52,980 bases of DNA, taken from assembly GCA_030601425.1 (NCBI GenBank), contig JAUVTR010000001.1, forward strand, positions 1 through 52,980, given 5' to 3'. The notes below the pieces were generated by a model. That model made no database searches, was not told the DNA's origin, and saw only the letters and a list, made by a program, of their open reading frames with translations. This document shows, in pieces, positions 14,371 to 52,256 of the stretch (positions are counted from its first letter, which is position 1; every line of letters starts with the position of its first letter). The position numbers and the translations under genes are program-made. The DNA is from Desulfobacterales bacterium. GTDB taxonomy: Bacteria > Desulfobacterota > Desulfobacteria > Desulfobacterales > JAHEIW01.

Positions 14371-14403
14371 AATCCCGCCTTATGGCGCTATCATTGGCGG
14401 GAC

Positions 14404-17910: not shown

Positions 17911-18131
17911 AAATCACTCGTTTCAAAATTGAATTTAGCTTGAAAAATTAAAGTTTAAATAAAGATCAATCATTTGTGAGGGCAAATGGGCAAGACTTCT
18001 ATTTATACCATAAATGAGATTTTTTTTCGATGCTCGATTTTCTGCTAAAAGACGAAGGCGCATAAACGGATTAAAAGCTAGCATGCGAGCATTTTAAGAA
18101 GCCCATAACGAAACTATTGCGCATTAGATAA

Positions 18132-18209
18132 CGAGAACGAGGACGACGACGAGTACGAAGCGAGAAGGAACGTTGTCTAACCTCGTATTCGTCGTCGTCC
18201 TCGTCCTCG
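18132..18209. repeat. Hairpin element D (GAGGACGAC dialect)
   Basis: 18132-18160 pairs with 18181-18209 at 26 of 29 positions, with a 20-nt loop. Lies 25 nt downstream of the guaB stop. Confidence 0.85.
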
Positions 18210-18233
18210 AGAATGGCATTTTTGAGATGGGTT

Positions 18234-19697: not shown

Positions 19698-19874
19698 GTG
19701 TTTTCTCCGTTAGATTCGTTTAGGCACCCGAATAGCAAAACACACCGCCTTTAGCAATCATTAATTTGCTTCCTTGACAAGCAGCCTATTTGCATAATAG
19801 AAGCTATCTCCAAAATGCATTTTATCCGCCTCAGATAGGCGGGATTTCACATTAGAATATGGGGTTTTTGAAAT

Positions 19875-20483
19875 ATGCTGATTAAAGTAAATCCAATCAA
19901 CCCCCAGACTCGACTCATTCAAAGGGCGGTCAACATCCTTATAAATGGCGGCATCGTCGTCTATCCAACCGATACCCATTACGGCATCGGCTGTGATATC
20001 CTGAATAAAAAAGCCATTGAACGCATCTACCAATTGAAACAACGAAATAAAAGCAAGCCCTTTAGTTTTATTTGTTCAGATCTCAAAAACATCAGTCATT
20101 ATGCCAAGGTATCCAATTATGCCTATAAGACCATGAAAAGGCTTTTACCGGGCCCCTATACCTTCATCCTTGAAGGTTCCAAACTCGTACCCAAAATTAT
20201 GTTGACCAAACGCAAAACCGCTGGAATTCGTGTGCCGGATCATAAAATATGTCTCGAGCTGGTAGAGGGGTTGGGAAATCCCATTATCACCACCAGCGCC
20301 ACGATGCCCGATGGCAGCATCCTGAATGATGCTTCCCTGATTCATGACGTATTTAAAGACCGCATTGATATGGTGATTGATGGAGATATCGTCTCGGGAA
20401 AACCGTCGAGCGTTATTTCCTTGATAGATGACACACCTGAGGTTATCCGCAAAGGGATGGGGGATGTAAGTATTTTTGAGTAA
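19875..20483 (+). CDS. tsaC: L-threonylcarbamoyladenylate synthase (YrdC/TsaC type)
   Basis: 202 aa. YPTDTHYGIGCD, KQRNKSKPFS and GIRVPDH motifs of the YrdC/Sua5 domain. Confidence 0.85.
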   Translation: MLIKVNPINPQTRLIQRAVNILINGGIVVYPTDTHYGIGCDILNKKAIERIYQLKQRNKSKPFSFICSDLKNISHYAKVSNYAYKTMKRLLPGPYTFILEGSKLVPKIMLTKRKTAGIRVPDHKICLELVEGLGNPIITTSATMPDGSILNDASLIHDVFKDRIDMVIDGDIVSGKPSSVISLIDDTPEVIRKGMGDVSIFE

Positions 20484-20588
20484 AAAACCTCTGCCCAAGC
20501 GAATAAATATTTCCTAAACAGGTTTACGAAGGTTGGCCATCACAAACCCAGTCCAGATATTCATTCTGCTGCATGGGCAGAGATTTTT

Positions 20589-22433: not shown

Positions 22434-22600
22434 GAATAATTAGTCCCCCTTAGCCTATTTTATTGCAGCCAGATAGAGCCCTGGCGCAACCTCCTATCTT
22501 TAACAGAATGGCGAAAAAATGCAATCCTTTATTTAATTTTTGGTAAAATCCGTGGATCAGAACTATTGAGATTAGGAATAGCAACTATTCTCCAATTTAT

Positions 22601-23266
22601 TTATAGCTTTTTTTCGATGTACGACAGCATTAAATCAACCACCTTCTCAACAGATAAACCGGTGGAATCAATCCGAATCGCGTCATCAGCCGGTTTTAGA
22701 GGCGCCAGGCTCCGCGTGCTGTCATTTGTGTCGCGCTTTTTCATATCCTGCGCAACCTCTTCCAGAGACTGGCTTGATTTAGATTCGAGCTCTTGATACC
22801 TACGCAGGGCTCGGGTTTTTGATGATGCATCCAAAAAAAATTTAACATCAGCCTCGGGGAAGACGATGGTTCCCATATCGCGTCCTTCAAAAACCGCCGC
22901 TTTCTTTTGGCCAATATCTCTTTGCACTTCAAGCAAATAATCCCTCACAATCGATTTAGCCGAAACTGCCGATGCCAGCATGCTAATTTCCGGAGTGCGT
23001 ATAGGGTCTGAAATGTCGACCCCATCTGAATAGAGCCGCAACCCCGTCCCTTTCGATTCAAAACCAAGCTGAATTAGATGACAAAGTTTCTGCAACTTGG
23101 CTTCATTTTCCGGGTTGATTCCGCGACGTTTAACCTCATAAGCCACCCCGCGATAAAGGGCGCCGGTATTGATATAACGGTATCCCAGCCGGTCGGCGAG
23201 CGCCCGGCTCACGGTTGTTTTTCCGGCCCCGGCAGGCCCATCAATGGTGATCAATAGTTTCTTCAT
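22601..23266 (-). CDS. cmk: Cytidylate kinase
   Basis: 221 aa. ITIDGPAGAGKTT P-loop and typical CMP-binding region. Confidence 0.93.
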   Translation of the reverse strand: MKKLLITIDGPAGAGKTTVSRALADRLGYRYINTGALYRGVAYEVKRRGINPENEAKLQKLCHLIQLGFESKGTGLRLYSDGVDISDPIRTPEISMLASAVSAKSIVRDYLLEVQRDIGQKKAAVFEGRDMGTIVFPEADVKFFLDASSKTRALRRYQELESKSSQSLEEVAQDMKKRDTNDSTRSLAPLKPADDAIRIDSTGLSVEKVVDLMLSYIEKKL

Positions 23267-23270
23267 AGTC

Positions 23271-23417
23271 CTGGTGTCAGGTGTCAGGTGTCAGGTTTCA
23301 GGCCACTGGCTACTAGTTACTGCTACCCGTCACTGGTTTCCGGCAGCCGCAGAGGGCTGCCCTTCTCCGGTTTTCATCTATCTTCTGACTTCTGACTTCT
23401 GTCTTCTGATTTCTGAT
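23271..23417. repeat. Element E: the whole cmk-hisC spacer as 21 in-phase heptads
   Basis: ctggtgt caggtgt caggtgt caggttt caggcca ctggcta ctagtta ctgctac ccgtcac ... ttctgac ttctgac ttctgtc ttctgat ttctgat. The left GGTGTCA arm is 23273-23302 and the right TTCTGAC arm is 23381-23416. A central GGCAGCC/GGCTGCC hairpin lies at 23342-23361. Confidence 0.9.
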
Positions 23418-23420
23418 CGC

Positions 23421-24512
23421 TTAAATTACCTGTTCAAACGCTTCTAAAAAACGAATATTTTCCTCATGTTTTCCAATATTTACCCGGATATATTCCGAAT
23501 ATCCGTAAGATGTCAATGAGCGTACGATCACCCCTTGTTTAAGAAGATTTTCGAAAACCTCATCCGCGGTTCTCCCATCTCCAACCTTGACCATAAAAAA
23601 ATTGGCCTGGGATCGAATATAAGGCATCTCCAGCTTTTCCAGAACGCCATATATAAATTCGAGCTCGTTGTGAACCAGATCGACAGTCTTTTGCAGGAAT
23701 TCAGTATCGTTAAGCGCAGCGGACGCTGCCACCTGGGCAAGTGTATTGACATTAAACGGTTGTCTGACCCTGTGAAGGAGTTCGGCCAAAGCCGACGGCA
23801 TCACGCCGTAGCCCACACGCAGTCCCGCTAAACCGAAAGCTTTGGAGAACGTGCGTATCCCCACAATGGCTTTATCGGTTCTCAAAAATTCAAAACTGTT
23901 AGCGCAATTCGATTCTCTGACAAATTCGATATAGGCTTCATCCAACACAATGACGATTTGGGGCGGAATCTCTGCGATAAATTCTTCAAAATCATGTCTT
24001 GATATAATAGTTCCGGTCGGATTGTGGGGAACATTTATAAAGATCATGCGGGTTTTCGGGCTTATTTTCCGTAACATGCCTGCCAGATTCGTTTCAAACG
24101 ATTTTAGGGGAACCCAGACCGGAATAGCACCGGAGGTAAGAATCGAAATTTCATAAAATAGAAAGGACGGTTGCGGTAAAATAACCTCGTCATCAGGTCT
24201 CAACAAAACCCGCGCCAGCAAAGCGATGATATCGTCGGATCCGTTTCCTAAAACAATATTTTCCGGAGCAATGTTATTCTTTTCAGCAATAGATTGAATC
24301 AGTTCGTAGCCACCGGCGTCCGGATACCGATGCAGTTTTGCTATTGCCCGGCGGATGGCTCCAACAGCCATCGGTGACGGTCCCAATGGGTTTTCATTGG
24401 ACGCCAGCTTAATGGGATTATCGATCCCATATTCCCGCTGAACTTCCTCGACAGGCTTCCCGGGAACATAGGGTTTAATCTTTGAGAAATAATCCGGGAT
24501 TTTCAGTTTCAT
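23421..24512 (-). CDS. hisC: Histidinol-phosphate aminotransferase
   Basis: 363 aa class-II aminotransferase. LASNENPLGPSP, NPNNPTG-like PHNPTG and RTFSKAFGLAGLRVGY (PLP lysine). Confidence 0.9.
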   Translation of the reverse strand: MKLKIPDYFSKIKPYVPGKPVEEVQREYGIDNPIKLASNENPLGPSPMAVGAIRRAIAKLHRYPDAGGYELIQSIAEKNNIAPENIVLGNGSDDIIALLARVLLRPDDEVILPQPSFLFYEISILTSGAIPVWVPLKSFETNLAGMLRKISPKTRMIFINVPHNPTGTIISRHDFEEFIAEIPPQIVIVLDEAYIEFVRESNCANSFEFLRTDKAIVGIRTFSKAFGLAGLRVGYGVMPSALAELLHRVRQPFNVNTLAQVAASAALNDTEFLQKTVDLVHNELEFIYGVLEKLEMPYIRSQANFFMVKVGDGRTADEVFENLLKQGVIVRSLTSYGYSEYIRVNIGKHEENIRFLEAFEQVI

Positions 24513-24576
24513 TTTAGGTATAAAGCGTTAATATTACAAGTTAATACATTTTTGAGATTAAAAATATAATTTAAAA

Positions 24577-24662
24577 AATTACCACGAAATCACGAAAACA
24601 TAAAAGCACGAAATATTCTTTCTTTTTCGTGTTTTCGTCATTTCGCGCTTTCGTGGTAAATT
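24577..24662. repeat. Hairpin element F (CACGAAA dialect)
   Basis: aattaccacgaaatcacgaaaacataaaagcacgaaa (24577-24613) versus tttcgtgttttcgtcatttcgcgctttcgtggtaaatt (24625-24662). About 30 of 38 positions are complementary, with an 11-nt loop. Confidence 0.88.
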
Positions 24663-24714
24663 ACTTTTCGATTTATTAAGTATAGATTCGGGTACAGAAA
24701 TTATTCGATCTTTG

Positions 24715-25254
24715 TTAAGTTGCCATTGCGGCTTTTTGGCCCTCTTCCAGTGCCTTCATGTTAAGCGGGATCAGTTTTTCTTTACTGGCAAATTTGACTT
24801 TTACCGATTCACGCAACCGCTCAAAGTCGACCACCTGGCTGCGACTGACGAATGCCGCCAGTGCCACGATATTGGCAGCTTTAACATTTCCCAATTCCTT
24901 GGCAATTTCGATAATCGGAACTTTAAGAACGTCCACATCGTCCCGACCGGCATCAATCGAAATGATGGAACTATTGATAAAGATGATGCCGCCGGATTTT
25001 ACAGCCGGTGCGAATTTTTCAAGAGAAGGGCGATTCATCGCTACCAGATGTTTCGGATTCCGAATAATCGGAGAACCGATAGGCCGGTCGCTGATCACCA
25101 CCGTACAATAAGCCGTACCCCCTCTCATTTCCGGCCCGTATGACGGAATCCAAACGACTTCATAGCCTTGATCCATGGCAGCCTGAGCCATAATCTGACC
25201 CATTAGCATAATTCCCTGGCCGCCGAATCCGGCGAATTGAATTTCGTTTTGCAT
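24715..25254 (-). CDS. 2-oxoacid:ferredoxin oxidoreductase, gamma subunit
   Basis: 179 aa. The GFGGQGI motif is typical of POR/KOR/VOR gamma subunits. Substrate specificity is not resolvable from sequence. Confidence 0.85.
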   Translation of the reverse strand: MQNEIQFAGFGGQGIMLMGQIMAQAAMDQGYEVVWIPSYGPEMRGGTAYCTVVISDRPIGSPIIRNPKHLVAMNRPSLEKFAPAVKSGGIIFINSSIISIDAGRDDVDVLKVPIIEIAKELGNVKAANIVALAAFVSRSQVVDFERLRESVKVKFASKEKLIPLNMKALEEGQKAAMAT

Positions 25255-25285
25255 TATACCTCCTCCCCTAACCCGGACGAGCCGG

Positions 25286-25432
25286 TTGGAGCGAAGCAGA
25301 AATCCCGGTTTATCGGGGAATTGAAAATTGAAGATTTCAAATTGAATATTTATGGATGTCGCTTCGCTCCGTCCTTTTTAAAATGGAAAGAATTCCTTAA
25401 ATATTCAATATTCAATCGAAAATATTCAATCG
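25286..25432. repeat. Hairpin element G (ATTCAAT dialect) with the conserved core
   Basis: Arms are 25318-25355 and 25395-25432, and the core is 25356-25394 (gtcgcttcgctccgtcctttttaaaatggaaagaattcc). An extra upstream ggagcgaagc (25288-25297) is exactly complementary to 25361-25370. Confidence 0.85.
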
Positions 25433-25458
25433 TTACAAGACAGTAAAGAGCAATGGAT

Positions 25459-26238
25459 TTAACCATTTTTTGCGGATGACGAACTCGTTGCGCTCTCCTC
25501 TTCTTCAGGTCTTTTAAAAACGCCTAAAGAATAATAAGGAAGCATTTTTTCTTCAGCCCACTTGATTGCATCCAGCGGCGTCATCCCCCAGTTTGTTGGG
25601 CAGGTGCTGACCAATTCGACAAAACTAAAACACGTATTTTCTATTTGATAGGTAAAAGCCTTTTTGATAGCCTTTTTCGCTTTGTTGATATATTTGGGAT
25701 TTAGCAGTGTCTGACGGGTTATATAGGCCGGCGTCTGAAGTGCGGCCAGCATTTCAGACATTTTTATCGGCATCCCGGTATCCAGAATTTTGCGCCCAAA
25801 GGGTGAGGTGGTGGTCCGCTGATCCGGCATGGTTGTGGGCGCCATCTGACCGCCGGTCATACCATAGACTGCGTTATTGATAAAAATAACCGTAAACTTT
25901 TCCCCCCGGTTGGCTGCATGCACAATTTCACCCATCCCGATGCTGGCCAGATCCCCGTCACCCTGATAGGTAAATACAACCAGATCAGGGCGCACACGTT
26001 TAATGCCGGTCGCCATCGCCGGCGCGCGACCGTGGGCGGCTTCCTGAAAGTCGAAGGTGAAGTAGTTATACATCAAAACAGCACACCCCACTGGCGCAAT
26101 ACCAACGGTTCGGCCGCGGATGTCGAGTTCATCGATCACTTCCGCCACGAGTCGATGCGCCACACCATGCGTACAGCCCGGGCAATAGTGAGTGATCGTA
26201 TCGGCCAGGGCTTCGGGTTTCTGAAATGTTTTCCCCAT
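25459..26238 (-). CDS. 2-oxoacid:ferredoxin oxidoreductase, beta (TPP-binding) subunit
   Basis: 259 aa. CPGCTHG, the GDGD..IG TPP motif and NN.VYGMTGGQ. Confidence 0.9.
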   Translation of the reverse strand: MGKTFQKPEALADTITHYCPGCTHGVAHRLVAEVIDELDIRGRTVGIAPVGCAVLMYNYFTFDFQEAAHGRAPAMATGIKRVRPDLVVFTYQGDGDLASIGMGEIVHAANRGEKFTVIFINNAVYGMTGGQMAPTTMPDQRTTTSPFGRKILDTGMPIKMSEMLAALQTPAYITRQTLLNPKYINKAKKAIKKAFTYQIENTCFSFVELVSTCPTNWGMTPLDAIKWAEEKMLPYYSLGVFKRPEEEESATSSSSAKNG

Positions 26239-26257
26239 TTATTTTCTCCTATATTTG

Positions 26258-26366
26258 GTCGATTTGTTGAATGGTTAACTGGTTAATTAGTTTGATGAAA
26301 AAAGCACTGACGGTTAAACCTAATAACTATTCAACCCATCGACTATTTGACTATTTAACTATTTTG
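26258..26366. repeat. Hairpin element H (GTTAACT/CTATTTA dialect)
   Basis: 26258-26290 pairs with 26320-26343 at 21 of 24 positions with a 9-nt bulge. It is followed by ctatttga ctatttaa ctatttt, which overlaps the stop of the alpha-subunit gene. Confidence 0.75.
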
Positions 26367-27421
26367 CGAACTTCTTCCATGACCTCTTCGGGAGTGGGAA
26401 CTTCACCGCCACATTTGCCGTACCAATGCACCGGGCGCCGGCCGGAAACACTGCGTTCAACATCTTCCACCATCTGTCCCATGGACATTTCCACGCACAG
26501 CACAGCCCGGCAGCTTTGCCTGTCAACCGCAGCGTAGATGGCAGTCTTTGGAAACGGAAATACGGTCTGGGGTCTGATCATACCCACTTCAAATCCCTGC
26601 TCTTTGAGATTATCAATGGCAGTTCGACATACCCGGCTCATGGTGCCGTAGCTGACGATAAGCACGCGATAGTCCCCATCGACATTGTAGGCTTCATAGC
26701 GCACCTCTTCCCGTTCCATCTGCTCATACTTGGCTTTTAACATCAGATTGTGAGAATTGAGTTCCTCGGGATCCAGATAGAGCGTTTTAACCAGGTTGCG
26801 CCGCTTGCGATTGCGCGTCGCCATGCCGTTGGTGGCCCAATCATCTTTGTTGGTGGGTTCGGCTTTAAGCGAATCCGGGAATTCCACCGGTTCCATCATC
26901 TGACCGATAAGCCCGTCTCCCAGGATCATTACCGGATTGCGGTATTTCTCGGCCAGAGCAAATGCGCCCATCATCATCTCAACGGCTTCCTGAACACTGG
27001 CCGGTGCCATGACCAGCAGTTTATAGTCTCCGTGCCCGCCCCCTTTTACCGATTGCATATAGTCGGCCTGAGAAGGAAGGATACCACCCAATCCCGGCCC
27101 GCCGCGCATGATGTTGACAAACACCGCCGGGCACTGGGCCGCGGTGATATAGCTGATGCCTTCACTCATCAAACTGATGCCGGGGCTGGAAGAGGTTGTA
27201 AACACCCGCTCCCCGCAGGCAGCGGCGCCAAAGATCATATATGATACGGCCACTTCGCTTTCACCCTGCAAAAACACACCGCCTGCTTCCGGTAATCGGC
27301 GGGAGAGATATTCAGCAACTTCAGATTGAGGCGTGATTGGATAGGCAAAATAATTCAAACAGCCTGCCCGAATAGCGGCCTCTCCAATGGCTTCATTGCC
27401 TTTCATCAATACTTTCCCCAT
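26351..27421 (-). CDS. 2-oxoacid:ferredoxin oxidoreductase, alpha subunit
   Basis: 356 aa. KGNEAIGEAAIRAGC..YPITPQSE is the N-terminus typical of KorA/VorB-type subunits. Confidence 0.9.
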   Translation of the reverse strand: MGKVLMKGNEAIGEAAIRAGCLNYFAYPITPQSEVAEYLSRRLPEAGGVFLQGESEVAVSYMIFGAAACGERVFTTSSSPGISLMSEGISYITAAQCPAVFVNIMRGGPGLGGILPSQADYMQSVKGGGHGDYKLLVMAPASVQEAVEMMMGAFALAEKYRNPVMILGDGLIGQMMEPVEFPDSLKAEPTNKDDWATNGMATRNRKRRNLVKTLYLDPEELNSHNLMLKAKYEQMEREEVRYEAYNVDGDYRVLIVSYGTMSRVCRTAIDNLKEQGFEVGMIRPQTVFPFPKTAIYAAVDRQSCRAVLCVEMSMGQMVEDVERSVSGRRPVHWYGKCGGEVPTPEEVMEEVRKIVK

Positions 27422-27433
27422 AATATCCTCCGA

Positions 27434-27667
27434 TTATTTTTTCGCTGCCGCTTCTTCTTCAATTTCTCTGATGGTTATGGCGACATCCGGGCACATCGTG
27501 CAGCATAGTGCGCAAAAAATGCAATCTTCAGGACGCGCCTGATATGCCGGAAAATAGCCTTTGGTGTTAACATTATTGGAAATTTCTAAAACGTTCTTAG
27601 GGCAAACGGCTACACACAACCCGCAGCCTTTACATTGATCCTCGTCAACTGAATGCTGATATGTCAT
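27434..27667 (-). CDS. 2-oxoacid:ferredoxin oxidoreductase, delta (2x[4Fe-4S]) subunit
   Basis: 77 aa with two CxxCxxCxxxCP-type motifs (CKGCGLCVAVCP, CIFCALCCTMCP). Lies 12 nt upstream of the alpha subunit. Confidence 0.85.
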   Translation of the reverse strand: MTYQHSVDEDQCKGCGLCVAVCPKNVLEISNNVNTKGYFPAYQARPEDCIFCALCCTMCPDVAITIREIEEEAAAKK

Positions 27668-27750
27668 AGATCAAAACTCCTTCACCGAGCTTTAAAACCG
27701 ATTTTTATTTTATCTAAAATAATATAATTTACTTGCATATTTGGATTCAA

Positions 27751-27834
27751 CCACGGAGTTCACGAAGGCCACAAAGTGAGGAATAAAAAATCTCTGGCCT
27801 TAATCTTTGTGACCTTTGTGCCTTTGTGGTGAAC
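27751..27834. repeat. Hairpin element I (CACAAAG/CACGAAG dialect)
   Basis: The left arm contains gttcacgaaggccacaaagtgagg. The right arm is ctttgtgacctttgtgcctttgtggtgaac. This is an imperfect inverted repeat. Confidence 0.7.
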
Positions 27835-27896
27835 AAAATCAATAGCTACTTTTTTGCCGGATCCATAATAGCGCCAGAAGCTTTAAATCGCAACCA

Positions 27897-28610
27897 TCAT
27901 CCCGATGGGCTCTGTTTTTCAAATGGGAGCGCCTTTTTCCACGGCGGAACCAGCTGTCTTTCTATCGACAAAACCGGGCAGGAAAATCGCCGCACATCGA
28001 TCGCGGGCAATAATTCGCGGGCAACAGTAATAAATTCAAGCGCTAAACCACTTTGTTCGGATAATCCGTTAACAAATTCATAGCCGTCATAAATATCATC
28101 CGCTGAGGTTTCATCAATTAAATTAGCGTTGCCGATAATGCCATCGACAGCCAACTTGGCGGCCTGCTCGATCTCTTTGCGGACTTTGAGACAGCCTTCA
28201 AATGTTTCCGTAAAAGGTCTTAACGGATTGACCACCTGCAAAACCCTTATGAGTCTGTTTTTAAAAGCATCTTCAAGTGTCGCCAGGATGGTCGCGCCAG
28301 CATCATCACCGCCGACATCCAACAGCGTCAACTCAGCGGGCTGGCGTATCATTCCGGCAACAAGCGGACTTAGAATTGGAAGATCGGCATGCAGGTATTG
28401 ATCCGGCGGGAGCACAACCTCAATTCCCATTTCTGAAAGCGGCCCTTTGGCTTCACGCGTTCGAAAATACGGGTTAACCAGATCAAGATCGGCAATGCGC
28501 ACATCCACCCCGGCGCGTTTGCGGTGCACAGCCAGGTTAATGGACACTTCGGTCTTACCGCTGCCGTAGTTACCGACGACAACGACAATTCCTGTTAAAT
28601 TAATTTCCAC
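27897..28610 (-). CDS. P-loop NTPase (SIMIBI-like, possibly a GTPase) of unknown role
   Basis: 237 aa with a GTG start. Walker A GNYGSGKT, DVGG (DxxG-like) and NLID (NKxD-like). Lies upstream of and co-oriented with the oxidoreductase operon. Confidence 0.6.
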   Translation of the reverse strand: MEINLTGIVVVVGNYGSGKTEVSINLAVHRKRAGVDVRIADLDLVNPYFRTREAKGPLSEMGIEVVLPPDQYLHADLPILSPLVAGMIRQPAELTLLDVGGDDAGATILATLEDAFKNRLIRVLQVVNPLRPFTETFEGCLKVRKEIEQAAKLAVDGIIGNANLIDETSADDIYDGYEFVNGLSEQSGLALEFITVARELLPAIDVRRFSCPVLSIERQLVPPWKKALPFEKQSPSG

Positions 28611-28820: not shown

Positions 28821-29112
28821 AGTGCCTACAAAAAAAAGTGAGCTAAAATTCAAAATGATCTAAAATGCCTAAAATTAATGAATTCTGCCCGTCGAGAGCC
28901 TCTGGGTCGAACGACTGAGTCGAACGATCCATTTTATTTAAAAAGATGGAGCATGGCGACTCCATAACCCTGGCCCAGACCCTGATTACAGATTTAAGGG
29001 GTTACTCGAAATCCTCCACGTTAACTGAAGTAATCGCATGATAGTATTTTATAGCGCGAGGGCGGGCTTTAGGCACTTTAGATCATTTTAGGCATTTTAG
29101 GCATTTCAGGCA
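28821..29112. repeat. Element J (GCCTAAAAT dialect) enclosing a 191-nt interior with the inverted conserved core
   Basis: 28853-28875 (aaaatgatctaaaatgcctaaaa) pairs with 29067-29089 (ctttaggcactttagatcatttt) at 21 of 23 positions. The interior 28881-28961 carries the reverse complement of the C/G core, with a 38-nt insertion. Confidence 0.8.
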
Positions 29113-30328: not shown

Positions 30329-30460
30329 CCAGAGGTCAGATTACAGAGGACAGAGGACAGCAGTCAGATGACAGAGAACATGCGTTAGAAAATGGTGCCA
30401 GCATTCAGTCTACTGTCTTCTGTTATCTGTTTTCTGACTTCTGACATCTGACATCTGACA
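30329..30460. repeat. Heptad-periodic hairpin element K (GTCAGAG/GACAGAG dialect)
   Basis: The left arm 30329-30380 starts on the base after the namZ stop. The right arm 30408-30460 is about 70-75% complementary in heptad register. Confidence 0.85.
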
Positions 30461-31120: not shown

Positions 31121-31126
31121 AAAATA

Positions 31127-31162
31127 ATCAGAGCCCGGCATGTCGGCATCCCGGGCTCTGAT
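31127..31162. terminator. Bidirectional terminator-like hairpin between convergent genes
   Basis: ATCAGAGCCCGG / CCGGGCTCTGAT form a perfect 12-bp stem with a 12-nt loop, followed by GGTTTTCC on the plus strand and GATTATTTT on the minus strand. Confidence 0.6.
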
Positions 31163-31184
31163 GGTTTTCCAAATTTAAAAGCCG

Positions 31185-34688: not shown

Positions 34689-36413
34689 ATGAAAGCATTG
34701 ATCCTGGCAGCGGGCCTGGGAACCCGGTTGCGGCCCTACACGGACCACACCCCCAAACCGCTTTTCCCCATCCTGGGCAGACCGCTCCTGGATATTATGA
34801 TTACCAAACTGATCGATGCCGGTTGCAAAGCGGTTATTATCAATACGCACCACCTGCACGACCAAATCGAATCGTTTATCGCGCACCAAGCTTACCCCAT
34901 CCCGATCCAAACACGCTATGAACCGAATATTCTTGGGACCGGCGGTGCCATCAGAAATGTTAAAGATTTCTGGAACGATCAACCCTTTATGGTGATTAAC
35001 GCAGATATTTTCACGACAATCGATCTCAAAAGAGTTTACGATTTCCACTGTCGGCATTCGCATCCGGCAACTCTCGTGCTTGCGGACGACCCCGATTTTA
35101 ACAGTATCGTTTGCGACAGCGATGGTTTTGTTACCGAATTTCATCACCGTTCAGACACGACTGATCGATCCTCGATCGCTGCGCTCACCTTTACAGGCAT
35201 CCAGGTATTGGATCCGGAAATCTTAAATTTTATACCTGTTGAGGCGCCATCCAGCAGTATTGATGCCTATACCCGTATGATTGCGGAAGGAAAAAAAATA
35301 AGAGCCTATCTCTCCAAAAAAACTTACTGGAAAGATATCGGTACCGCTGAACGCTACAAATTAGCGGTATTTGAAGTCACAGCACCCGAGGTATTTAAGC
35401 AAGTTTTCCCCGACTTGCAAATCGGCCCTATTTGCCGTGAACCGCTTAAAGGCGATGGGTCCGACCGGCAATGGTCGCGATTAAAAATGGGTACAGCGTC
35501 AATGATAGTCGTTGATCATGGCATCAAGAAAGCCGCTCGGGTAGATGCGGCCGATGCCTTTGTAAACATTGGCCGCCATCTGTTCGACCGGGGCGTGCCG
35601 GTTCCGCAAATCTATGATGGAGATACCTTCGCCGGATATGTGTTTTTAGAGGATCTTGGAAATCTCGATTTGCAAACCATTGTGCAGCAAACCGACAATT
35701 TTGAAAAGATCATCAGCCTGTATCAATCCGTGATTCATCTGCTGACAGAATTTTCGGCATCCGGTGCGGAACAATTCAACGTGGCCTGGACCTATCAGAC
35801 GCCCCGCTATAACAAAAAACTGATTCTGAAAAACGAATGCCGCTATTTTGTAGAAGCGTTTTTAAATACATACCTCGGGTTAGAAGTCATATATGATGAC
35901 TTTAAAAAGGAATTTGAATATCTGGCTGAAAATGCCCTGCAACATGCCTTAGAGGGCCTGATGCACCGGGATTTTCAGTCTCGTAATATTATGGCTAAAA
36001 ATGATGAGTTTTATTTTATCGATTTTCAGGGAAGCCGCCTGGGACCCATCCAATACGACCTGGCATCGTTACTGATTGATCCCTATGTCCAGTTACCGCA
36101 AGACATCCAAACTCAGCTGCTCGGATACTGCGTGGAAAAACTGGAAGCGGATATGAACCTGAATGCCGATAATTTTCGCCGCTGCTATCGGTACTGCCGT
36201 TTGACGCGCAACCTGCAGATTCTGGGGGCATTTGGGCATTTGAGCCGTGTCAAAGCAAAACCCCATTTTGAACAATATATTCCGCCAGCCGTCCGAACGC
36301 TTAGAAACAATCTTAAAAAACACGAACAAAAAACACTGCCAATGCTAAACGCCCTTATGGATAAGATCATCAAACATAATCAAATTCAAAACCCGGTTCG
36401 AAAGGCGACTTGA
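34689..36413 (+). CDS. Fused MurNAc-1-P uridylyltransferase-like (MurU) and MurNAc/GlcNAc kinase-like (AmgK) protein
   Basis: 574 aa. N-terminal LAAGLGTRLRP sugar-nucleotidyltransferase fold, and a C-terminal APH-type kinase with HRDFQSRNIM and IDFQG motifs as in AmgK. Confidence 0.75.
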   Translation: MKALILAAGLGTRLRPYTDHTPKPLFPILGRPLLDIMITKLIDAGCKAVIINTHHLHDQIESFIAHQAYPIPIQTRYEPNILGTGGAIRNVKDFWNDQPFMVINADIFTTIDLKRVYDFHCRHSHPATLVLADDPDFNSIVCDSDGFVTEFHHRSDTTDRSSIAALTFTGIQVLDPEILNFIPVEAPSSSIDAYTRMIAEGKKIRAYLSKKTYWKDIGTAERYKLAVFEVTAPEVFKQVFPDLQIGPICREPLKGDGSDRQWSRLKMGTASMIVVDHGIKKAARVDAADAFVNIGRHLFDRGVPVPQIYDGDTFAGYVFLEDLGNLDLQTIVQQTDNFEKIISLYQSVIHLLTEFSASGAEQFNVAWTYQTPRYNKKLILKNECRYFVEAFLNTYLGLEVIYDDFKKEFEYLAENALQHALEGLMHRDFQSRNIMAKNDEFYFIDFQGSRLGPIQYDLASLLIDPYVQLPQDIQTQLLGYCVEKLEADMNLNADNFRRCYRYCRLTRNLQILGAFGHLSRVKAKPHFEQYIPPAVRTLRNNLKKHEQKTLPMLNALMDKIIKHNQIQNPVRKAT

Positions 36414-36445
36414 ATATTCAATAGTCAATCGAAAATATTCAATCC
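36413..36445. repeat. Solo ATTCAAT arm, a near-identical copy of the right arm of element G
   Basis: aatattcaatagtcaatcgaaaatattcaatcc matches 25400-25432 at 31 of 33 positions. It fills the gap between the murU-amgK stop and the dapB RBS. Confidence 0.9.
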
Positions 36446-41256: not shown

Positions 41257-41350
41257 TAGTTAAATGGTCAATTAGTTGATTCGTTAAATAGTTTAAAATG
41301 GATTGAATCCTTTGACTAATTGACAATTCGACGAATTAACTAATTGACTA
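41257..41350. repeat. Hairpin element M (GTCAATTAG/TTAACGA dialect)
   Basis: Centred on ggattgaatcc (41301-41311). 41275-41324 is the reverse complement of 51346-51396, about 90% identical over roughly 50 nt. Confidence 0.88.
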
Positions 41351-43571: not shown

Positions 43572-43664
43572 ATTTATAATCCACAGATTACGCAGAAATA
43601 AATATTCAATAATTTCTTTATAATTTTTTAAATCTGTGTAAATCTGCGAAATCTGCGGATAAAT
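43572..43664. repeat. Hairpin element O (CGCAGAT dialect)
   Basis: atttataatccacagattacgcagaaat (43572-43599) versus aatctgtgtaaatctgcgaaatctgcggataaat (43631-43664), with an AT-rich 31-nt loop. Confidence 0.8.
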
Positions 43665-49965: not shown

Positions 49966-50970
49966 ATGACGGTTAAACTTGGCATTAATGGTTTTGGAAG
50001 GATCGGGCGCCTCGTCTTTAGAGCGGCCTTAAAAAATCCTGAGGTTGAAGTCGTTGCCATCAACGACCTTACAAACGCGGCCACAATGGCCCATCTGCTT
50101 AAATATGATTCAGTACATGGCACATTGGATGTCGATGTTAGCGCTCAAGATGACCGGCTGGAAGTGGATGGCAAAGCCGTTGCCATCCGATCTATTAAGG
50201 AGCCTGAGAATCTCGGGTGGAGCGAACTCGGCGTAGACGTTACCGCGGAATGCACCGGGTTGTTTCGTGATCGCGAAAGTGCCTCCAGGCATCTGGCTGC
50301 CGGAGCACGTAAAGTCATCATATCGGCTCCAGCCAGCGATCCCGATATTACAATTGTCATGGGAGTCAACTCGAATCAATATGATCCGCGACAGCATCAT
50401 ATTATTTCAAATGCCTCGTGTACAACCAATTGTCTGGCGCCGGTAGCCAAAGTACTTTTGGAAAATTTCGGCTTGAAAAACGGATTGATGACCACCATCC
50501 ATGCCTATACCGGTGATCAACGACTGTTGGACTTTCCTCACAAAGATTTGCGCCGAGCCAGAGCAGCAGCGCTTTCAATGGTACCCACCACCACGGGTGC
50601 GGCCAAAGCCGTGTCGCTGGTGCTGCCGGAATTGTCCGGCAAACTTAACGGACTTGCCGTCCGTGTCCCCATCCCCAATGTTTCGATGGTGGATTTTGTG
50701 GCCACCTTGGAAAAAACCGACATTACCGTCTCAGAAGTCAACGCAGCCTTGAAAAATGCTTCGGAAGAATCCCTGGCCGGCATTCTGGGATACAGCGAAG
50801 CGCCTCTGGTTTCGATCGACTTTAACGGATCCACACTGTCCTCAATCGTGGATGCCCCCACCACCCATGTTATCGATAATATGGTAAAGGTGCTTGCCTG
50901 GTATGATAACGAAGCCGGCTATTCACATCGAATGGTGGACCTGGCGGTCATGGTGGGAGCGGAGCTATAG
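49966..50970 (+). CDS. gap: Type I glyceraldehyde-3-phosphate dehydrogenase
   Basis: 334 aa. INGFGRIGR and the SNASCTTNCLAP catalytic motif. Confidence 0.96.
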   Translation: MTVKLGINGFGRIGRLVFRAALKNPEVEVVAINDLTNAATMAHLLKYDSVHGTLDVDVSAQDDRLEVDGKAVAIRSIKEPENLGWSELGVDVTAECTGLFRDRESASRHLAAGARKVIISAPASDPDITIVMGVNSNQYDPRQHHIISNASCTTNCLAPVAKVLLENFGLKNGLMTTIHAYTGDQRLLDFPHKDLRRARAAALSMVPTTTGAAKAVSLVLPELSGKLNGLAVRVPIPNVSMVDFVATLEKTDITVSEVNAALKNASEESLAGILGYSEAPLVSIDFNGSTLSSIVDAPTTHVIDNMVKVLAWYDNEAGYSHRMVDLAVMVGAEL

Positions 50971-50984
50971 CTCTGGTTTCAGAG

Positions 50985-51013
50985 TCCGCAGATTTCGCAG
51001 ATTTCCGCAGATA
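50985..51013. repeat. Solo CGCAGAT arm
   Basis: In tccgcagatttcgcagatttccgcagata, the first 20 nt are identical to the reverse complement of 43641-43660 in element O. It starts 15 nt after the gap stop. Confidence 0.85.
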
Positions 51014-51016
51014 ATA

Positions 51017-51302
51017 AAGCTGTTAAGCTAGTACCTGAATTTTGCACGAGTCGGAGGCTTTCATGTGCAAGGCACTTAAGGGCGAAGCCATAGTGAACTA
51101 TTGCGAGCCCTTAATAACGCAGCAGATGGAAGCCTCCGGCTCGCCCGCAGGGTGAAAAGTAATGAGATAAAATGATTTTCATCCATTATACCTGATAGGT
51201 ATTTTGGTTTACTTCGCTGGTTTGCTTAACCTGTTGTCATTAAAAATAATCTTAACTTCTCATTAATTTTCATGAAAGATCCAGGTAGTAAGCTGTTGAG
51301 CT
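51017..51302. repeat. MITE-like 286-bp block with imperfect terminal repeats
   Basis: aagctgttaagct-agtacctg (51017-51037) versus caggtagt-aagctgttgagct (51282-51302). I see no target-site duplication. Confidence 0.45.
51047..51143 (+). ncRNA. Candidate structured RNA (unknown family)
   Basis: An 18-bp closing helix 51047-51064 / 51126-51143 has 16 Watson-Crick pairs plus 2 T-G positions that pair only in the plus sense. Inner hairpins are gtgc-aag-gcac and ttaagggc(51076-83)/gcccttaa(51107-14). Confidence 0.45.
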
Positions 51303-51339
51303 GATATGCCGATAAGATGTTGGCACCTGGTTAAATGTT

Positions 51340-51467
51340 CAAATAGTCAATTAGTCAGAGGATTCAATCCGTTTTAAAACTATTTAACGATTCGACGATT
51401 TAACCAATTAACTTATCATTTTACTAATTGACTATTCGATTAATTGACCATTTAACGAATTAACGAT
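51340..51467. repeat. Hairpin element N (GTCAATTAG/TTAACGA dialect), the partner copy of M
   Basis: Centred on ggattcaatcc (51360-51370). It equals the reverse complement of element M with an internal insertion of about 44 nt. It ends 27 nt before the tpiA ATG. Confidence 0.88.
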
Positions 51468-51494
51468 GCCCCACCGGGCGAGAGGACGATAAAA

Positions 51495-52256
51495 ATGGGA
51501 AATCGCAGACCTCTGATTGCCGGTAACTGGAAAATGTACAAAACCCCGCAGGAAGCCGCTGATACTGCAAAGCAGCTGGTTGAACAGGTGCGCGAAGTCG
51601 CAGACGTCGATATCATGATTGCCCCGCCATTTACGGCTCTTGAATCGGTATCCAGGGTGATTAAAAACAGCCCGGTTGCGCTGGGCGCTCAGAATCTTTA
51701 CTGGGAAGATGAAGGCGCATATACGGGTGAGATATCGGCCCCCATGCTTAAATCAGCGGGCTGTCAATACGCCATCATCGGCCATTCCGAGCGTCGCCAG
51801 TATTTCGGCGAGACCGATAAAACCGTCAACCAAAAAATCCAGGCAGCGATCCAGATTGGCCTGAAACCGGTTTTTTGTATAGGTGAAACCGAACAAGAGC
51901 GGGAAGCGGAGCAGACGTTATCCGTACTTGACAAACAGGTTAGGAAGGGGTTAGAAAGGCTGCTTCCGGAACAACTGGATACGCTGATCATCGCTTATGA
52001 ACCCGTGTGGGCCATTGGAACCGGCAAAACCGCCACAGAGGATCAGGCCCAGGAGGTTCATCAGTTTATCCGGTCTCTGATTGAGAAAAGTTTTGGAAAT
52101 GACCTTTCCAAATCCATCAGAATATTGTATGGTGGCAGTGTTAAACCGGATAATATTTTGAATTTAATGGCAATGCCGGACATTGATGGCGCCCTTGTCG
52201 GGGGAGCGAGTCTAAGCGCCGACTCCTTTAGCCGGATTATAAAGTTTAAAGGGTAA
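51495..52256 (+). CDS. tpiA: Triose-phosphate isomerase
   Basis: 253 aa. AGNWKM, GHSERR, YEPVWAIGTG and GGASL. Confidence 0.95.
   Translation: MGNRRPLIAGNWKMYKTPQEAADTAKQLVEQVREVADVDIMIAPPFTALESVSRVIKNSPVALGAQNLYWEDEGAYTGEISAPMLKSAGCQYAIIGHSERRQYFGETDKTVNQKIQAAIQIGLKPVFCIGETEQEREAEQTLSVLDKQVRKGLERLLPEQLDTLIIAYEPVWAIGTGKTATEDQAQEVHQFIRSLIEKSFGNDLSKSIRILYGGSVKPDNILNLMAMPDIDGALVGGASLSADSFSRIIKFKG

What the first reader, a model, noticed from the sequence alone, without database searches (positions are those of the whole stretch)
51047..51143. 97-nt strongly structured candidate RNA with strand-informative wobble pairs inside a MITE-like block
cgagtcggaggctttcat (51047-51064) pairs with atggaagcctccggctcg (51126-51143) over 18 consecutive positions. 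Sixteen are Watson-Crick, and two (51051 with 51139, 51061 with 51129) are T opposite G. Those two form G-U pairs in a plus-sense RNA but would be A-C mismatches in the minus sense. Inside are gtgc-aag-gcac and an 8-bp helix ttaagggc/gcccttaa, whose 23-nt loop has its own atag/ctat stem. A related segment lies at 18083-18135, about 70% identical over roughly 55 nt, including gaagcc(c)ata..gaa(a)ctattgcg and ataacg. It lacks the closing helix. The whole structure sits in a 286-bp block (51017-51302) bounded by imperfect terminal repeats. I do not recognise an Rfam family.
Basis: seen in the sequence. Interest (0 to 1): 0.65.

Follow-up and report, generated by a model that had tools for sequence, protein, structure and literature searches.

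The report
Conserved hairpin inside a high-copy MITE
The 97-nt hairpin is real, but it is not a stand-alone RNA gene: it is the conserved, strand-specifically folded internal module of a very abundant, recently mobile miniature transposon (MITE) of marine sulfate-reducing Desulfobacterales that landed between gap and tpiA.

Summary
The hairpin at 51047-51143 exists as described (18-bp closing helix, two U.G pairs, -57.2 kcal/mol, z = -9.6). It belongs to a 252-bp insertion (51034-51285) with terminal inverted repeats CCTGAATTTTGCA / TGCAAGATTCAGG and a 5-bp target duplication (TAGTA). Contigs with an identical Gap protein exist with and without the insert. In sediment metagenomes the element ends are about 100-300 times deeper than the flanks. 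More than 200 copies were recovered from Desulfobacterales MAGs and metagenomes, each with its own AT-rich 5-bp duplication. It is therefore a MITE; no autonomous partner was found.

The fold is conserved with compensatory changes (74 compensated cells against 12 in shuffles). A second MITE family with different termini and a different outer stem has the same architecture. In both families the module splits an otherwise roughly 28-bp left inverted repeat after 13-14 nt. Variants that spread are G.U-type on the + strand and almost never A.C-type, and the + strand folds better in 91 of 97 copies.

The claimed relative at 18083-18135 is chance. The claimed 286-bp boundaries are host repeats. No Rfam family matches. 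The kind is ordinary, with an unusual conserved single-strand module of unknown role.

The parts
51029..51033 (.). Left copy of the 5-bp target-site duplication (TAGTA)
   Evidence: The empty alleles L003, L006 and L008 carry a single TAGTA here. Other copies each have their own 5-bp duplication.
51034..51046 (+). Left terminal inverted repeat, outer part (CCTGAATTTTGCA)
   Evidence: Twelve of the 13 positions are invariant and the first is nearly invariant (at least 90%) in 97 distinct copies. Note that the metagenome search pattern fixed this 13-mer and the genome pattern fixed 12 of its bases. It matches the reverse complement of the right end. Contigs break into unrelated flanks at 51032/33.
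51047..51143 (+). 97-nt hairpin module: 18-bp outer stem, conserved internal loop (AUGCAAGGCA / UAACGCAGCAG), 8-bp inner stem, small apical stem-loop
   Evidence: Fold. Covariation. Covariance model: 116 bits on + and 60.5 on -. The same architecture occurs in family 2.
51144..51152 (+). Mini stem CCC-NNN-GGG directly abutting the hairpin; the stem is conserved and the triloop is hypervariable
   Evidence: In one search, CCC and GGG are at least 90% conserved while the three middle bases have no majority. In family 2, L043, L071, L155 and L189 have CCU...AGG, a compensated change.
51153..51168 (+). Left terminal inverted repeat, inner part (TGAAAAGTAATGAGAT), separated from the outer part by the module
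   Evidence: On the consensus of 100 copies, removing the module gives CCTGAATTTTGCATGAAAATTAATGAGAA, which matches the reverse complement of the right end at 28 of 29 positions. Inverted repeat I6.
51169..51256 (.). AT-rich variable core of the MITE
   Evidence: Column identity is low. Metagenome depth is lowest here (200-1100 against 10,000-28,000 at the ends). This part is deleted in the 45-, 61- and ~200-bp derivatives.
51257..51285 (-). Right terminal inverted repeat (29 nt, TTCTCATTAATTTTCATGAAAGATCCAGG). This copy differs from the family consensus at 2 of the terminal 13 bases.
   Evidence: Depth is 12,000 in run X1 and contigs break at about 51291.
51286..51290 (.). Right copy of the 5-bp target-site duplication (TAGTA)
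   Evidence: A joint 51030>51288 that skips 257 nt (252 + 5) is present in metagenome runs X1, X3 and X5, so the empty allele coexists with the filled one.

Best explanation
The 97-nt hairpin is the conserved internal module of a 252-bp non-autonomous transposon (MITE). The MITE inserted recently into the gap-tpiA spacer of a marine-sediment Desulfobacterales bacterium.

SHOWN. The element has 13-nt (ancestrally about 29-nt) terminal inverted repeats. It makes 5-bp AT-rich target duplications. It is present or absent between otherwise near-identical genomes. It occurs in very many dispersed, almost always intergenic copies, together with deletion derivatives of 45, 61 and about 200 bp. This is the signature of mobilisation in trans by a DDE-type transposase that makes 5-bp staggered cuts.

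ALSO SHOWN. The hairpin is not made by the terminal repeats. It is a 106-nt module (hairpin plus a CCC-NNN-GGG mini stem) that interrupts the left inverted repeat after 13 nt. A second MITE family with unrelated termini has the same module at the same place. The pairing is kept through compensatory changes. Only the + strand (reading inward from the left end) keeps a fully paired stem, because its non-Watson-Crick pairs are G.U.

INFERRED. The module is selected as a single-stranded fold in the lineages that proliferate, not in each decaying copy. The most likely form is RNA in the sense direction from the left end, which is where the parental transposon would place its transposase leader. There it would control transposase expression or transcript processing, or otherwise serve propagation.

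In this window the copy is a passenger. It places a -57 kcal/mol hairpin in the sense strand of the gap-tpiA intercistronic region, which may incidentally affect that transcript. My confidence is about 0.9 that this is a MITE module and about 0.35-0.4 that it acts as RNA in the transposon's own regulation.
For: - Presence/absence: eight contigs (window, L002, L004, L005, L007, L009, L010, L011) carry the insert and three (L003, L006, L008) lack it exactly, leaving one TAGTA. All encode the identical Gap protein.
- Copy number: depth is 20-130 in the flanks against 10,000-28,000 at the element ends in four metagenomes. Loose ends at the element boundaries are heterogeneous and AT-rich.
Hosts are mostly Desulfobacterales MAGs, the Olavius symbiont Delta 1 and Eth-SRB2.
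- Termini and duplications: 57 full-length hits have conserved termini, and many are flanked by matching 5-bp sequences that differ from site to site (taatt, tgata, tacta, tatga, tataa and others).
- Length classes: 45, 61, ~200-216 and 250-259 bp (105 copies in the last class).
- Location: 1 of about 90 classifiable copies lies inside an ORF.
- Structure: 95.8% of cells pair, against 33-47% when the partners are slid. Eighteen pairs show double changes against 6.9 +/- 1.7 in shuffles. There are 74 compensated cells against 12.2 +/- 3.0, with 0 of 500 shuffles reaching this.
- Between families, 8-14 of the 18 outer-stem pairs differ on both sides yet still pair, and U.G at stem position 5 is kept in all.
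- Polarity: the covariance model scores 116 bits on + and 60.5 on - in the window. Family-2 copies score 63 against 28 and 61 against 24.
- Strand asymmetry: G.U and A.C singletons are 13 and 13. Among states present in at least 4 copies there are 12 G.U-type and 2 A.C-type; among those in at least 10 copies, 4 and 0. The + strand is more stable in 91 of 97 copies (mean -53.0 against -46.6). Family 2 gives -53.4 against -36.8.
- Split repeat: shown on the consensus of 100 copies and in family 2.
- Transcription: the family occurs in metatranscriptome contigs that run on into flanks.
Against: - No autonomous element was found. Long pairs of termini are chance matches in ordinary genes. Orphan ends abut host genes. 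No multi-copy transposase-like protein occurs in the 1.5 Mb fetched. That the module sits in a transposase leader is therefore conjecture.
- There is no strand-resolved RNA evidence. The RNA runs are unstranded contigs, show no discrete ~100-nt species, and may contain DNA.
- The + strand advantage also holds with DNA energy parameters (94 of 97), so RNA and single-stranded DNA cannot be separated.
- The copies are related by descent, so cell counts and the Wilcoxon p-value overstate independence. The independent support amounts to about a dozen distinct stem positions plus the second family.
- The genome-contig search pattern fixed the first 7 nt of the 5' arm, which biases that subset. The metagenome pattern left the hairpin free, and that subset still gives 167 G.U against 37 A.C cells.
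Confidence: 0.8

Rival explanations
1. DNA-level switch. The module folds as a single-stranded DNA hairpin, for example on one strand during replication or transposition. Folding brings the two halves of the split left inverted repeat together and so recreates the contiguous ~29-nt transposase site found at the right end. Fold-dependent end recognition would couple mobility to replication or strand state.
For: The module splits the inverted repeat at the same place (after 13-14 nt) in two families with unrelated termini. Removing it restores 28 of 29 identity with the right end. The + strand is more stable with DNA parameters as well (94 of 97). The CCC-NNN-GGG mini stem abuts the hairpin with no spacer, so both would be extruded together. 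The bias in spreading variants fits selection on transposition competence.
Against: I know of no precedent among elements that make target duplications and have inverted termini. A double-stranded cruciform would also need the - strand to fold, and there the wobbles become A.C. The 45- and 61-bp derivatives lack the 3' arm yet occur in several copies, so the full hairpin is not strictly needed for mobilisation, unless those copies arose by deletion in place.
Confidence: 0.2
2. Neutral palindrome. The hairpin has no function. Its pairing is kept by DNA-level processes that homogenise the two arms of long palindromes (intra-strand template switching or gene conversion) and by descent from a few master copies.
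For: Individual copies decay symmetrically: singletons are 13 G.U and 13 A.C. L005 has a 2-nt deletion in the 5' arm. Many copies carry nested insertions or deletions in the hairpin. Long palindromes are known to undergo templated correction (my own knowledge, not tested here).
Against: Template switching produces Watson-Crick pairs and gives no reason for spreading variants to be G.U on one strand only (12 against 2, and 4 against 0). It does not explain conserved asymmetric loop motifs with fixed polarity across families. It does not explain a U.G kept at one position while 8-14 of the 18 other stem pairs change. It does not explain replacement of the apical stem by an unrelated hairpin (L034).
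Confidence: 0.12
3. Host-level RNA element. Once inserted, the transcribed hairpin serves the host as an mRNA stabiliser, RNase III site or insulator between genes, as proposed for Correia/NEMIS and ERIC elements, and is kept for that reason.
For: Copies are intergenic and occur in metatranscriptome contigs that continue into neighbouring sequence. In this window the + strand of the module is the sense strand of gap and tpiA. For the precedent of MITE RNA hairpins affecting neighbouring transcripts see PMC2229807.
Against: Copies are not enriched in the sense orientation (21 sense against 37 antisense between co-directional genes). The insertion here is polymorphic, so it is dispensable. Symmetric singletons argue against purifying selection on individual copies. 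No terminator-like U tract and no promoter is found in the element.
Confidence: 0.1
4. Stand-alone small RNA or cis-regulatory RNA of the gap-tpiA operon.
For: A very stable fold, + strand wobble pairs, and a location between two glycolytic genes.
Against: It is absent from near-identical spacers of strains encoding the same Gap protein. There are hundreds of copies next to unrelated genes. It is bounded by transposon termini and a target duplication. No Rfam family matches.
Confidence: 0.02
5. Nested mobile hairpin. The 106-nt module is itself a tiny mobile element (REPIN-like or similar) that targets the inverted repeats of these MITEs.
For: It interrupts an otherwise continuous inverted repeat in two families. 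A Y1-transposase/DnaA_C gene lies a few kb away in L002 and L004.
Against: Of 214 module hits, 198 follow the family-1 terminus directly. The other 16 are a mix: family-2 copies (L016, L145, L051, L043, L071, L155, L111, L189), family-1 copies with insertions in the 5' part or a diverged terminus (L040, L154, L235, L134, L192, L197), L203 and a 29-nt fragment. One of them, L203:1640-1736, lies in an ordinary intergenic region with no recognisable element boundaries. Its outer stem and the following CCC-NNN-GGG fold, but its inner part looks decayed and it scores only 46 bits. So a stand-alone copy is not excluded, though no intact one was seen. The position is the same in both families, which fits inherited architecture better than repeated targeting. 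No flanking duplication of the module is visible.
Confidence: 0.06

Closest known systems
Bacterial MITEs whose transcripts fold into hairpins: Correia/NEMIS (Neisseria), ERIC/IRU (enterobacteria), RUP (pneumococcus), YPAL (Yersinia) (review PMC2229807)
   Same: Small, non-coding, dispersed and mostly intergenic. They have terminal inverted repeats and target duplications, filled and empty sites between strains, and are co-transcribed with neighbours. The RNA hairpins are proposed to matter.
   Different: In those elements the long hairpin is largely the pairing of the two halves or termini of the element itself. Here the hairpin is a separate internal module placed inside the left repeat, with conserved asymmetric loops, fixed polarity and + strand-only wobble pairs, and it is shared by two families with unrelated termini. 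The duplication is 5 bp rather than TA.
IS1380-family insertion sequences (e.g. ISEcp1) as possible source of the transposase
   Same: ISEcp1 makes 5-bp duplications of AT-rich targets such as TATGA (PMC2887853). From memory, this family's ends begin with CC and its duplications are 4-5 bp. Both MITE families here begin CC(T/C) and make 5-bp duplications.
   Different: No IS1380-type transposase with these termini was found. From memory, ISEcp1 repeats are about 14 bp with no known internal hairpin. The resemblance of the termini (CCTrAATT...) rests on my memory of the ISEcp1 repeats and was not checked.
TIMEs, Tn3-family-derived miniature elements (PMC4133298)
   Same: Similar size (262 bp), 5- or 6-bp duplications, insertion into AT-rich DNA, non-autonomous.
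   Different: TIMEs have 38-bp Tn3-type repeats and are usually single-copy. Here the repeats are 13 nt (29 nt if the module is removed), start with CCTG and occur in hundreds of copies.
Structured 5' leaders and fold-back hairpins at the left ends of insertion sequences (IS200 leader stem-loop, IS10/IS50 fold-back inhibition; from my own knowledge, not checked here)
   Same: A stable RNA hairpin just inside the left end, in the sense of the transposase, acting on the element's own expression. This is the working model proposed here.
   Different: In those cases the hairpin overlaps the ribosome-binding site or includes the terminal repeat. Here no transposase gene is known, and the module splits the repeat rather than pairing with it.
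REP/REPIN elements mobilised by RAYT (Y1) transposases
   Same: Abundant intergenic hairpins about 100 nt long; single-strand folding matters for their mobility.
   Different: REPINs have no terminal inverted repeats of this kind and make no target duplication. Here both are present and the hairpin is only one part of a 252-bp unit.

Membership tests
MITE (non-autonomous DDE-type transposon) | Short and non-coding (below about 500 bp) | tested here: met
   The element is 252 bp. The only ORFs are 36-37 aa and run across the palindrome.
MITE (non-autonomous DDE-type transposon) | Terminal inverted repeats | tested here: met
   CCTGAATTTTGCA and TGCAAGATTCAGG are conserved in 57 full-length hits. 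The match is 28 of 29 once the module is removed.
MITE (non-autonomous DDE-type transposon) | Target-site duplication of fixed length that differs between sites | tested here: met
   The duplication is 5 bp: TAGTA here, and taatt, tgata, tacta, tatga, tataa, atatt and others elsewhere.
MITE (non-autonomous DDE-type transposon) | Many dispersed copies and filled/empty site polymorphism | tested here: met
   Depth is 100-300 times that of the flanks. More than 230 loci were recovered. Empty alleles are L003, L006 and L008, and the joint 51030>51288 is seen in metagenome runs.
MITE (non-autonomous DDE-type transposon) | A cognate autonomous element with the same termini and a transposase | tested here: inconclusive
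   None was found in the window or in 1.5 Mb of loci.
IS1380-family derivative | 4-5-bp duplication and ends beginning CC (definition recalled from memory; the 5-bp ISEcp1 duplication is cited from PMC2887853) | tested here: met
   Family 1 begins CCTG and family 2 begins CCCT. Both make 5-bp duplications.
IS1380-family derivative | Termini matching those of an IS1380-type transposase gene carrier | not tested
   No such transposase was retrieved, so no comparison of repeats was possible.
Tn3-derived TIME | 38-bp Tn3-type terminal repeats (PMC4133298) | tested here: not met
   The repeats are 13 nt (29 nt with the module removed) and start CCTGAAT.
Any Rfam 15 RNA family | Covariance-model score at or above the family's gathering threshold | tested here: not met
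   There were 0 matches at gathering thresholds over the whole window. At E up to 10, only chance microRNA or snoRNA matches of 15-22 bits appeared.
Intrinsic transcription terminator | GC-rich stem-loop followed by a U tract | tested here: not met
   The scan found 0 terminator-like sites in 50900-51560. The hairpin is followed by CCCGCAGGGUGAAAAG on the + strand and by UGCAAAAUUCAGG on the - strand.
REP/REPIN | No target duplication and no transposon-type termini; the hairpin itself is the mobile unit | tested here: not met
   A duplication and termini are present. The module is found almost only inside the MITE (198 of 214 hits).
Integron attC site | Core sites RYYYAAC and GTTRRRY at the base of the folded site (recalled from memory) | tested here: not met
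   The base of the hairpin reads CGAGTCGG...CCGGCTCG. GTTRRRY-like strings occur only in the host repeats AGCTGTTRAGCT outside the element.

The most novel reading that the evidence does not exclude
The module (long hairpin with conserved internal loop, an invariant U.G, and an abutting CCC-NNN-GGG mini stem) is a functional single-stranded device that belongs to the left end of an uncharacterised clade of DDE transposons in Desulfobacterales. It could be an RNA that the transposase or its expression depends on. Alternatively it could be a fold-dependent switch that reconstitutes a split terminal repeat. Either way, transposition of a cut-and-paste-type element would be gated by a nucleic-acid fold embedded within its own inverted repeat.
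Probability: 0.25. Interest if true: 0.7.

Novelty: new variant of a known kind. Interest (0 to 1): 0.45.

Why it matters
For annotating this window, the finding removes a false lead. There is no locus-specific RNA gene between gap and tpiA, only a recent, polymorphic transposon insertion.

For transposon biology, it defines two related, very abundant MITE families in the dominant sulfate reducers of marine and cold-seep sediments, including a gutless-worm symbiont. I could not find them described in the searchable literature or in Rfam. Their conserved part is not the usual pairing of termini. It is an internal, strand-specifically folded module that splits the left inverted repeat.

That architecture is more conserved than the termini themselves and is biased in the lineages that spread. 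This makes a concrete question testable: does a nucleic-acid fold inside a terminal repeat control mobilisation?

The copies are also useful markers of strain-level variation, and they are a likely cause of assembly breaks in these metagenomes.

Tried and rejected
1. Rfam, at gathering thresholds over the whole window and at permissive E-values over the spacer: nothing real.
2. The claimed relative at 18083-18135: chance-level alignment, and not hit by the family model.
3. Looking for an autonomous element:
   - Pairs of termini 0.5-8 kb apart, including window 25782-27532, are 2-mismatch chance matches inside ordinary genes such as the 2-oxoacid:ferredoxin oxidoreductase subunits.
   - Orphan right ends and left ends abut host genes (MiaB-like, aldehyde dehydrogenase, DapF, GalE and others).
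   - Clustering 683 proteins of at least 250 aa from the loci gave only housekeeping orthologue groups.
4. A scan of viral contigs for the module core: 0 hits.
5. RNA evidence: only unstranded Logan contigs were available. They show presence in transcripts but give no strand and no discrete ends.
6. Orientation bias relative to neighbouring genes: there is no sense enrichment and if anything a weak antisense excess, 21 against 37, p = 0.048, with crude ORF calls.
7. Promoter and terminator scan: nothing inside the element. Two promoter-like sites downstream are no more than expected by chance.
8. attC, REP/REPIN, retron, bridge-RNA or omega-RNA type readings were considered and dropped. The element has inverted termini plus a 5-bp duplication, which those systems lack, and none of their defining motifs is present.
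9. I ran no further search on guessing a transposase family, because there was no seed protein from this system.
Full report
**1. The observation.** 51047-51064 pairs with 51126-51143 over 18 consecutive positions, with T.G at 51051/51139 and 51061/51129. As RNA, the + strand folds to -57.2 kcal/mol (z = -9.6 against dinucleotide shuffles). The - strand folds to -46.3 (z = -6.8). Rfam 15 gives nothing at gathering thresholds in the whole window. At E up to 10 over the spacer it gives only chance microRNA or snoRNA matches of 15-22 bits.

Three details do not hold:
- The small gtgc/gcac helix depends on G51065, which is A in about 96% of family depth in run X1 and in the consensus.
- The 'related segment' at 18083-18135 scores 27 in local alignment. 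Of 100 shuffled queries, 38 do as well somewhere in the window.
- The 13-mers said to bound a 286-bp block are host sequence (see section 2).

**2. What the surrounding block is.** The hairpin lies in the 524-bp spacer between gap (49966-50970) and tpiA (51495-52256), downstream of rapZ and an EIIA gene and upstream of secG. A look-up of the exact Gap protein returned ten further contigs from sediment and seep metagenomes and MAGs.

Aligning their spacers shows a clean presence/absence polymorphism. The window, L002, L004, L005, L007, L009, L010 and L011 read ...GCTAGTA[CCTGAATTTTGC...GATCCAGG]TAGTAAGCTG.... L003, L006 and L008 read ...GCTAGTAAGCTG.... The insert is 51034-51285 (252 bp), and TAGTA is duplicated at 51029-51033 and 51286-51290.

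**3. It is a high-copy mobile element.** I laid Logan contigs of four metagenomes on 50900-51560. Depth was 20-130 in the flanks and 10,000-28,000 at 51038-51060 and 51268-51290. Loose ends with heterogeneous AT-rich sequence appear at 51032/33 and 51291. A joint 51030>51288 (skipping 257 = 252 + 5) shows the empty allele in the same samples. Many internal joints (about 51064 to about 51257) show deletion derivatives.

The metagenome scan (pattern CCTGAATTTTGCA, N90-115, GGGTGAAAA) gave 120 stretches. The scan of GTDB species genomes (pattern CTGAATTTTGCACGAGTCGG) gave 110. The carriers are mostly Desulfobacterales/Desulfobacteraceae MAGs, the Olavius symbiont Delta 1 and Eth-SRB2, with several loci per genome. 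A few bins carry other phylum labels.

Fifty-seven full-length BLAST hits show the conserved termini CCTGAATTTTGCA and TGCAAGATTCAGG. Many have matching 5-bp flanks that differ from site to site (taatt, tgata, tacta, tatga, tataa, atatt, taata and others), with a TAnTA-like, AT-rich preference. The length classes are 45 bp (12 copies), 61-66 bp (7), about 198-216 bp (22) and 250-259 bp (105). Copies are intergenic: 1 of about 90 classifiable copies lies inside an ORF.

This meets every structural criterion of a MITE. The window copy has two mismatches to the consensus in its right terminus. L005 has lost 2 nt from the 5' arm. Both are signs of decay after insertion.

**4. No autonomous partner was found.**
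- Termini pairs 0.5-8 kb apart, including one in the window at 25782-27532, are chance matches within ordinary genes.
- Orphan ends abut host genes.
- Clustering all ORFs of at least 250 aa in the 1.5 Mb of loci gave only housekeeping orthologue groups. These groups also show that some insertions sit at orthologous sites.

A 5-bp AT-rich duplication and termini starting with CC are what I recall for the IS1380 family. The 5-bp ISEcp1 duplication (TATGA) is documented in PMC2887853. Tn3-derived TIMEs share the size and the duplication but have 38-bp Tn3-type repeats (PMC4133298), which these elements lack. The transposase family therefore remains a lead and not a result.

**5. The hairpin is a conserved module, not a by-product of the termini.** On 97 distinct copies (alignment A1) the window's MFE structure has the following support:
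- 95.8% of cells pair, against 33-47% when the 3' partners are slid by 1-3 columns.
- 18 pairs have changes on both sides, against 6.9 +/- 1.7 in shuffles.
- 74 cells are compensated, against 12.2 +/- 3.0, and 0 of 500 shuffles reach this.

RNAalifold recovers the outer, inner and apical helices. The 2-bp helix at columns 39-40/87-88 shows no covariation and is doubtful.

The unpaired motifs AUGCAAGGCA (5' side) and UAACGCAGCAG (3' side) are conserved. A CCC-NNN-GGG mini stem with a hypervariable triloop abuts the hairpin.

On the consensus of 100 full-length copies, removing positions 14-119 (window 51047-51152) leaves CCTGAATTTTGCATGAAAATTAATGAGAA. This equals the reverse complement of the right end, CCTGAATCTTGCATGAAAATTAATGAGAA, at 28 of 29 positions. 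So the 106-nt module interrupts an otherwise continuous ~29-nt inverted repeat after 13 nt.

**6. A second family has the same design.** A profile of the hairpin found 214 modules in the loci, and 198 of them directly follow the family-1 terminus. The other 16 are a mix:
- Family-2 copies: L016, L145, L051, L043, L071, L155, L111 and L189.
- Family-1 copies with insertions in the 5' part or a diverged terminus: L040, L154, L235, L134, L192 and L197.
- The L203 variant and one 29-nt fragment.

Family 2 is another element. It is 256-257 bp long, with termini CCCTAAATGAGCG and CGATCATTTAGGG and duplications TTAAA/TTAAA and TATTA/TATTA. The module again lies 13-14 nt inside the left end. Removing it restores CCCTAAATGAGCGATAAACAAAATGGGA, against CCCTAAATGATCGTAAACAAAATGGGA at the right end.

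The covariance model built from family 1 matches these divergent modules over their full length and with polarity: 63 against 28 bits, 61 against 24, and 46 against 24.

Compared with the family-1 consensus, 9 (F2), 14 (F2b) and 8 (the L083 variant) of the 18 outer-stem pairs differ on both sides yet still pair. The U.G at stem position 5 (GUCG/CGGC, i.e. 51051.51139) is kept in the one representative examined of each version. In family 2, L043, L071, L155 and L189 have CCU...AGG in the mini stem, a compensated change. The core of the module is thus more conserved than the termini of the elements that carry it.

One divergent copy, L203:1640-1736, lies upstream of a histidine-kinase gene with no recognisable element ends. 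Its outer stem and the CCC-NNN-GGG that follows still fold, but its inner part looks decayed and it scores only 46 bits. I could not decide whether it is a degraded element or a stand-alone module.

**7. Strand specificity.** In family 1, non-Watson-Crick stem cells are G.U-type on the + strand in 230 cases and A.C-type in 45. In the metagenome subset, whose hairpin was not constrained by the search pattern, the counts are 167 and 37.

Because copies share ancestry, the frequency spectrum is more informative than the totals:

| State frequency | G.U-type | A.C-type |
|---|---|---|
| Singletons | 13 | 13 |
| At least 4 copies | 12 | 2 |
| At least 10 copies | 4 | 0 |

Both A.C-type states present in at least 4 copies lie in the doubtful 2-bp helix.

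The symmetric singletons indicate that mutational input is symmetric and that individual copies decay neutrally. What spread, however, was restricted to changes that keep the + strand paired.

The + strand is more stable than the - strand in 91 of 97 copies (mean -53.0 against -46.6 kcal/mol). The margin is larger in family 2: -53.4 against -36.8, -52.1 against -34.3, -41.6 against -29.9 and -44.7 against -36.8. The same holds with DNA parameters in 94 of 97 copies.

**8. What this does and does not say about function.** The fold is selected in a single-stranded form of the + strand, in the lineages that proliferate. The + strand reads inward from the left end, which is the sense in which an insertion sequence normally places its transposase leader. 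My preferred reading is therefore an RNA structure of the parental transposon's left end, acting on transposase expression or processing.

This step is inferred. It cannot be separated from a single-stranded DNA role, because G.T is tolerated in DNA too. One DNA model is attractive because of the split repeat: folding of the module would bring the two repeat halves together.

A host-level role is not supported:
- Orientation is not sense-biased (21 sense against 37 antisense).
- The insertion here is dispensable.
- No promoter or terminator signal lies in the element.

Metatranscriptome assemblies contain the family, and the contigs run on into flanks. They are unstranded and show no discrete ends. 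A purely neutral palindrome kept by arm homogenisation does not explain the one-strand wobble bias, the conserved asymmetric loops or the invariant U.G.

**9. Comparison with known things.** In kind, this is a bacterial MITE, like Correia/NEMIS, ERIC, RUP or YPAL, whose RNA hairpins have been linked to transcript processing (PMC2229807). It differs in that the hairpin is an internal module embedded in one terminal repeat and shared across families.

Full-text searches for MITEs in Desulfobacter-type or sulfate-reducing bacteria, and for IS1380-related MITEs, found nothing describing it. It is not in Rfam. ISfinder could not be consulted.

**10. Verdict.** The hairpin is real and structurally conserved, but it is a transposon module and not a gene of this locus. 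The MITE identity is close to certain. The role of the module is open, with RNA-level self-regulation of the parent element the most likely (about 0.35-0.4), a single-stranded DNA end switch next (about 0.2), and no function after that (about 0.1). I rate it a new variant of a known kind, of moderate interest.

Noticed in passing
window 51321-51473 and 41258-41348: An AT-rich array with 8-nt periodicity (TTAAC/TTGAC/TTCGAC units, 7 registers) lies just upstream of tpiA. It recurs inverted at 41258-41340 (83% identity) and is about 10 times deeper than its flanks in metagenomes. It is a second dispersed repeat family in the same spacer.
   Followed up: partly
window 50985-51012 and 43632-43659: CGCAGATTT(C) short tandem repeats lie right after the gap stop codon and recur inverted at 43.6 kb (28 nt, 93%). 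Metagenome depth there is 500-1700 against about 100 in gap, so this is a third repeat type.
   Followed up: no
window 8871-9047, 11002-11141, 14256-14373, 18132-18209, 24576-24662, 25357-25431, 28848-29103, 30335-30460, 31121-31168, 36409-36444: The window holds many other palindromic or mutually similar intergenic repeats, for example 11002-11141 with 30335-30460, and 14256-14373 with 28848-29103. These are probably further MITE/REP-like families.
   Followed up: no
window 51013-51341 (metagenome runs X1, X3): Some contigs replace this whole stretch, including the MITE, with 23 nt (TTAGTCGATTAGTTAATTCGTCG). This is a third allele of the gap-tpiA spacer in natural populations.
   Followed up: no
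L003 and L008, at the position of window 51290-51302: Empty alleles L003 and L008 carry an extra AGCTGTTG unit next to the insertion site, and L006 does not. The target region is itself a small variable tandem repeat.
   Followed up: no
L002:12889-15221 and L004:3448-5781: Downstream of secG, some strains carry a tyrosine integrase plus a Y1-transposase/DnaA_C-domain gene and small HTH/HicA genes. L005 has a different integrase and L006 has none. This strain-variable island lies next to the locus.
   Followed up: no
L034, L024, L197, L155, L158/L186, L235/L134, L226, L173 (family-1 copies): Several copies have the apical stem replaced by an unrelated GC-rich hairpin (ATCCCGC...GCGGGAT) or carry 20-60-nt nested insertions inside the internal loops. 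The module tolerates, or attracts, secondary insertions at defined places.
   Followed up: partly
L163, L175, L207 (Nitrospinaceae-labelled MAG), L140 (Omnitrophota), L184 (Actinomycetota), L136 (Pseudomonadota): A few carriers of the MITE are bins labelled outside Desulfobacterota. This means either mis-binned contigs or horizontal spread of the element.
   Followed up: no
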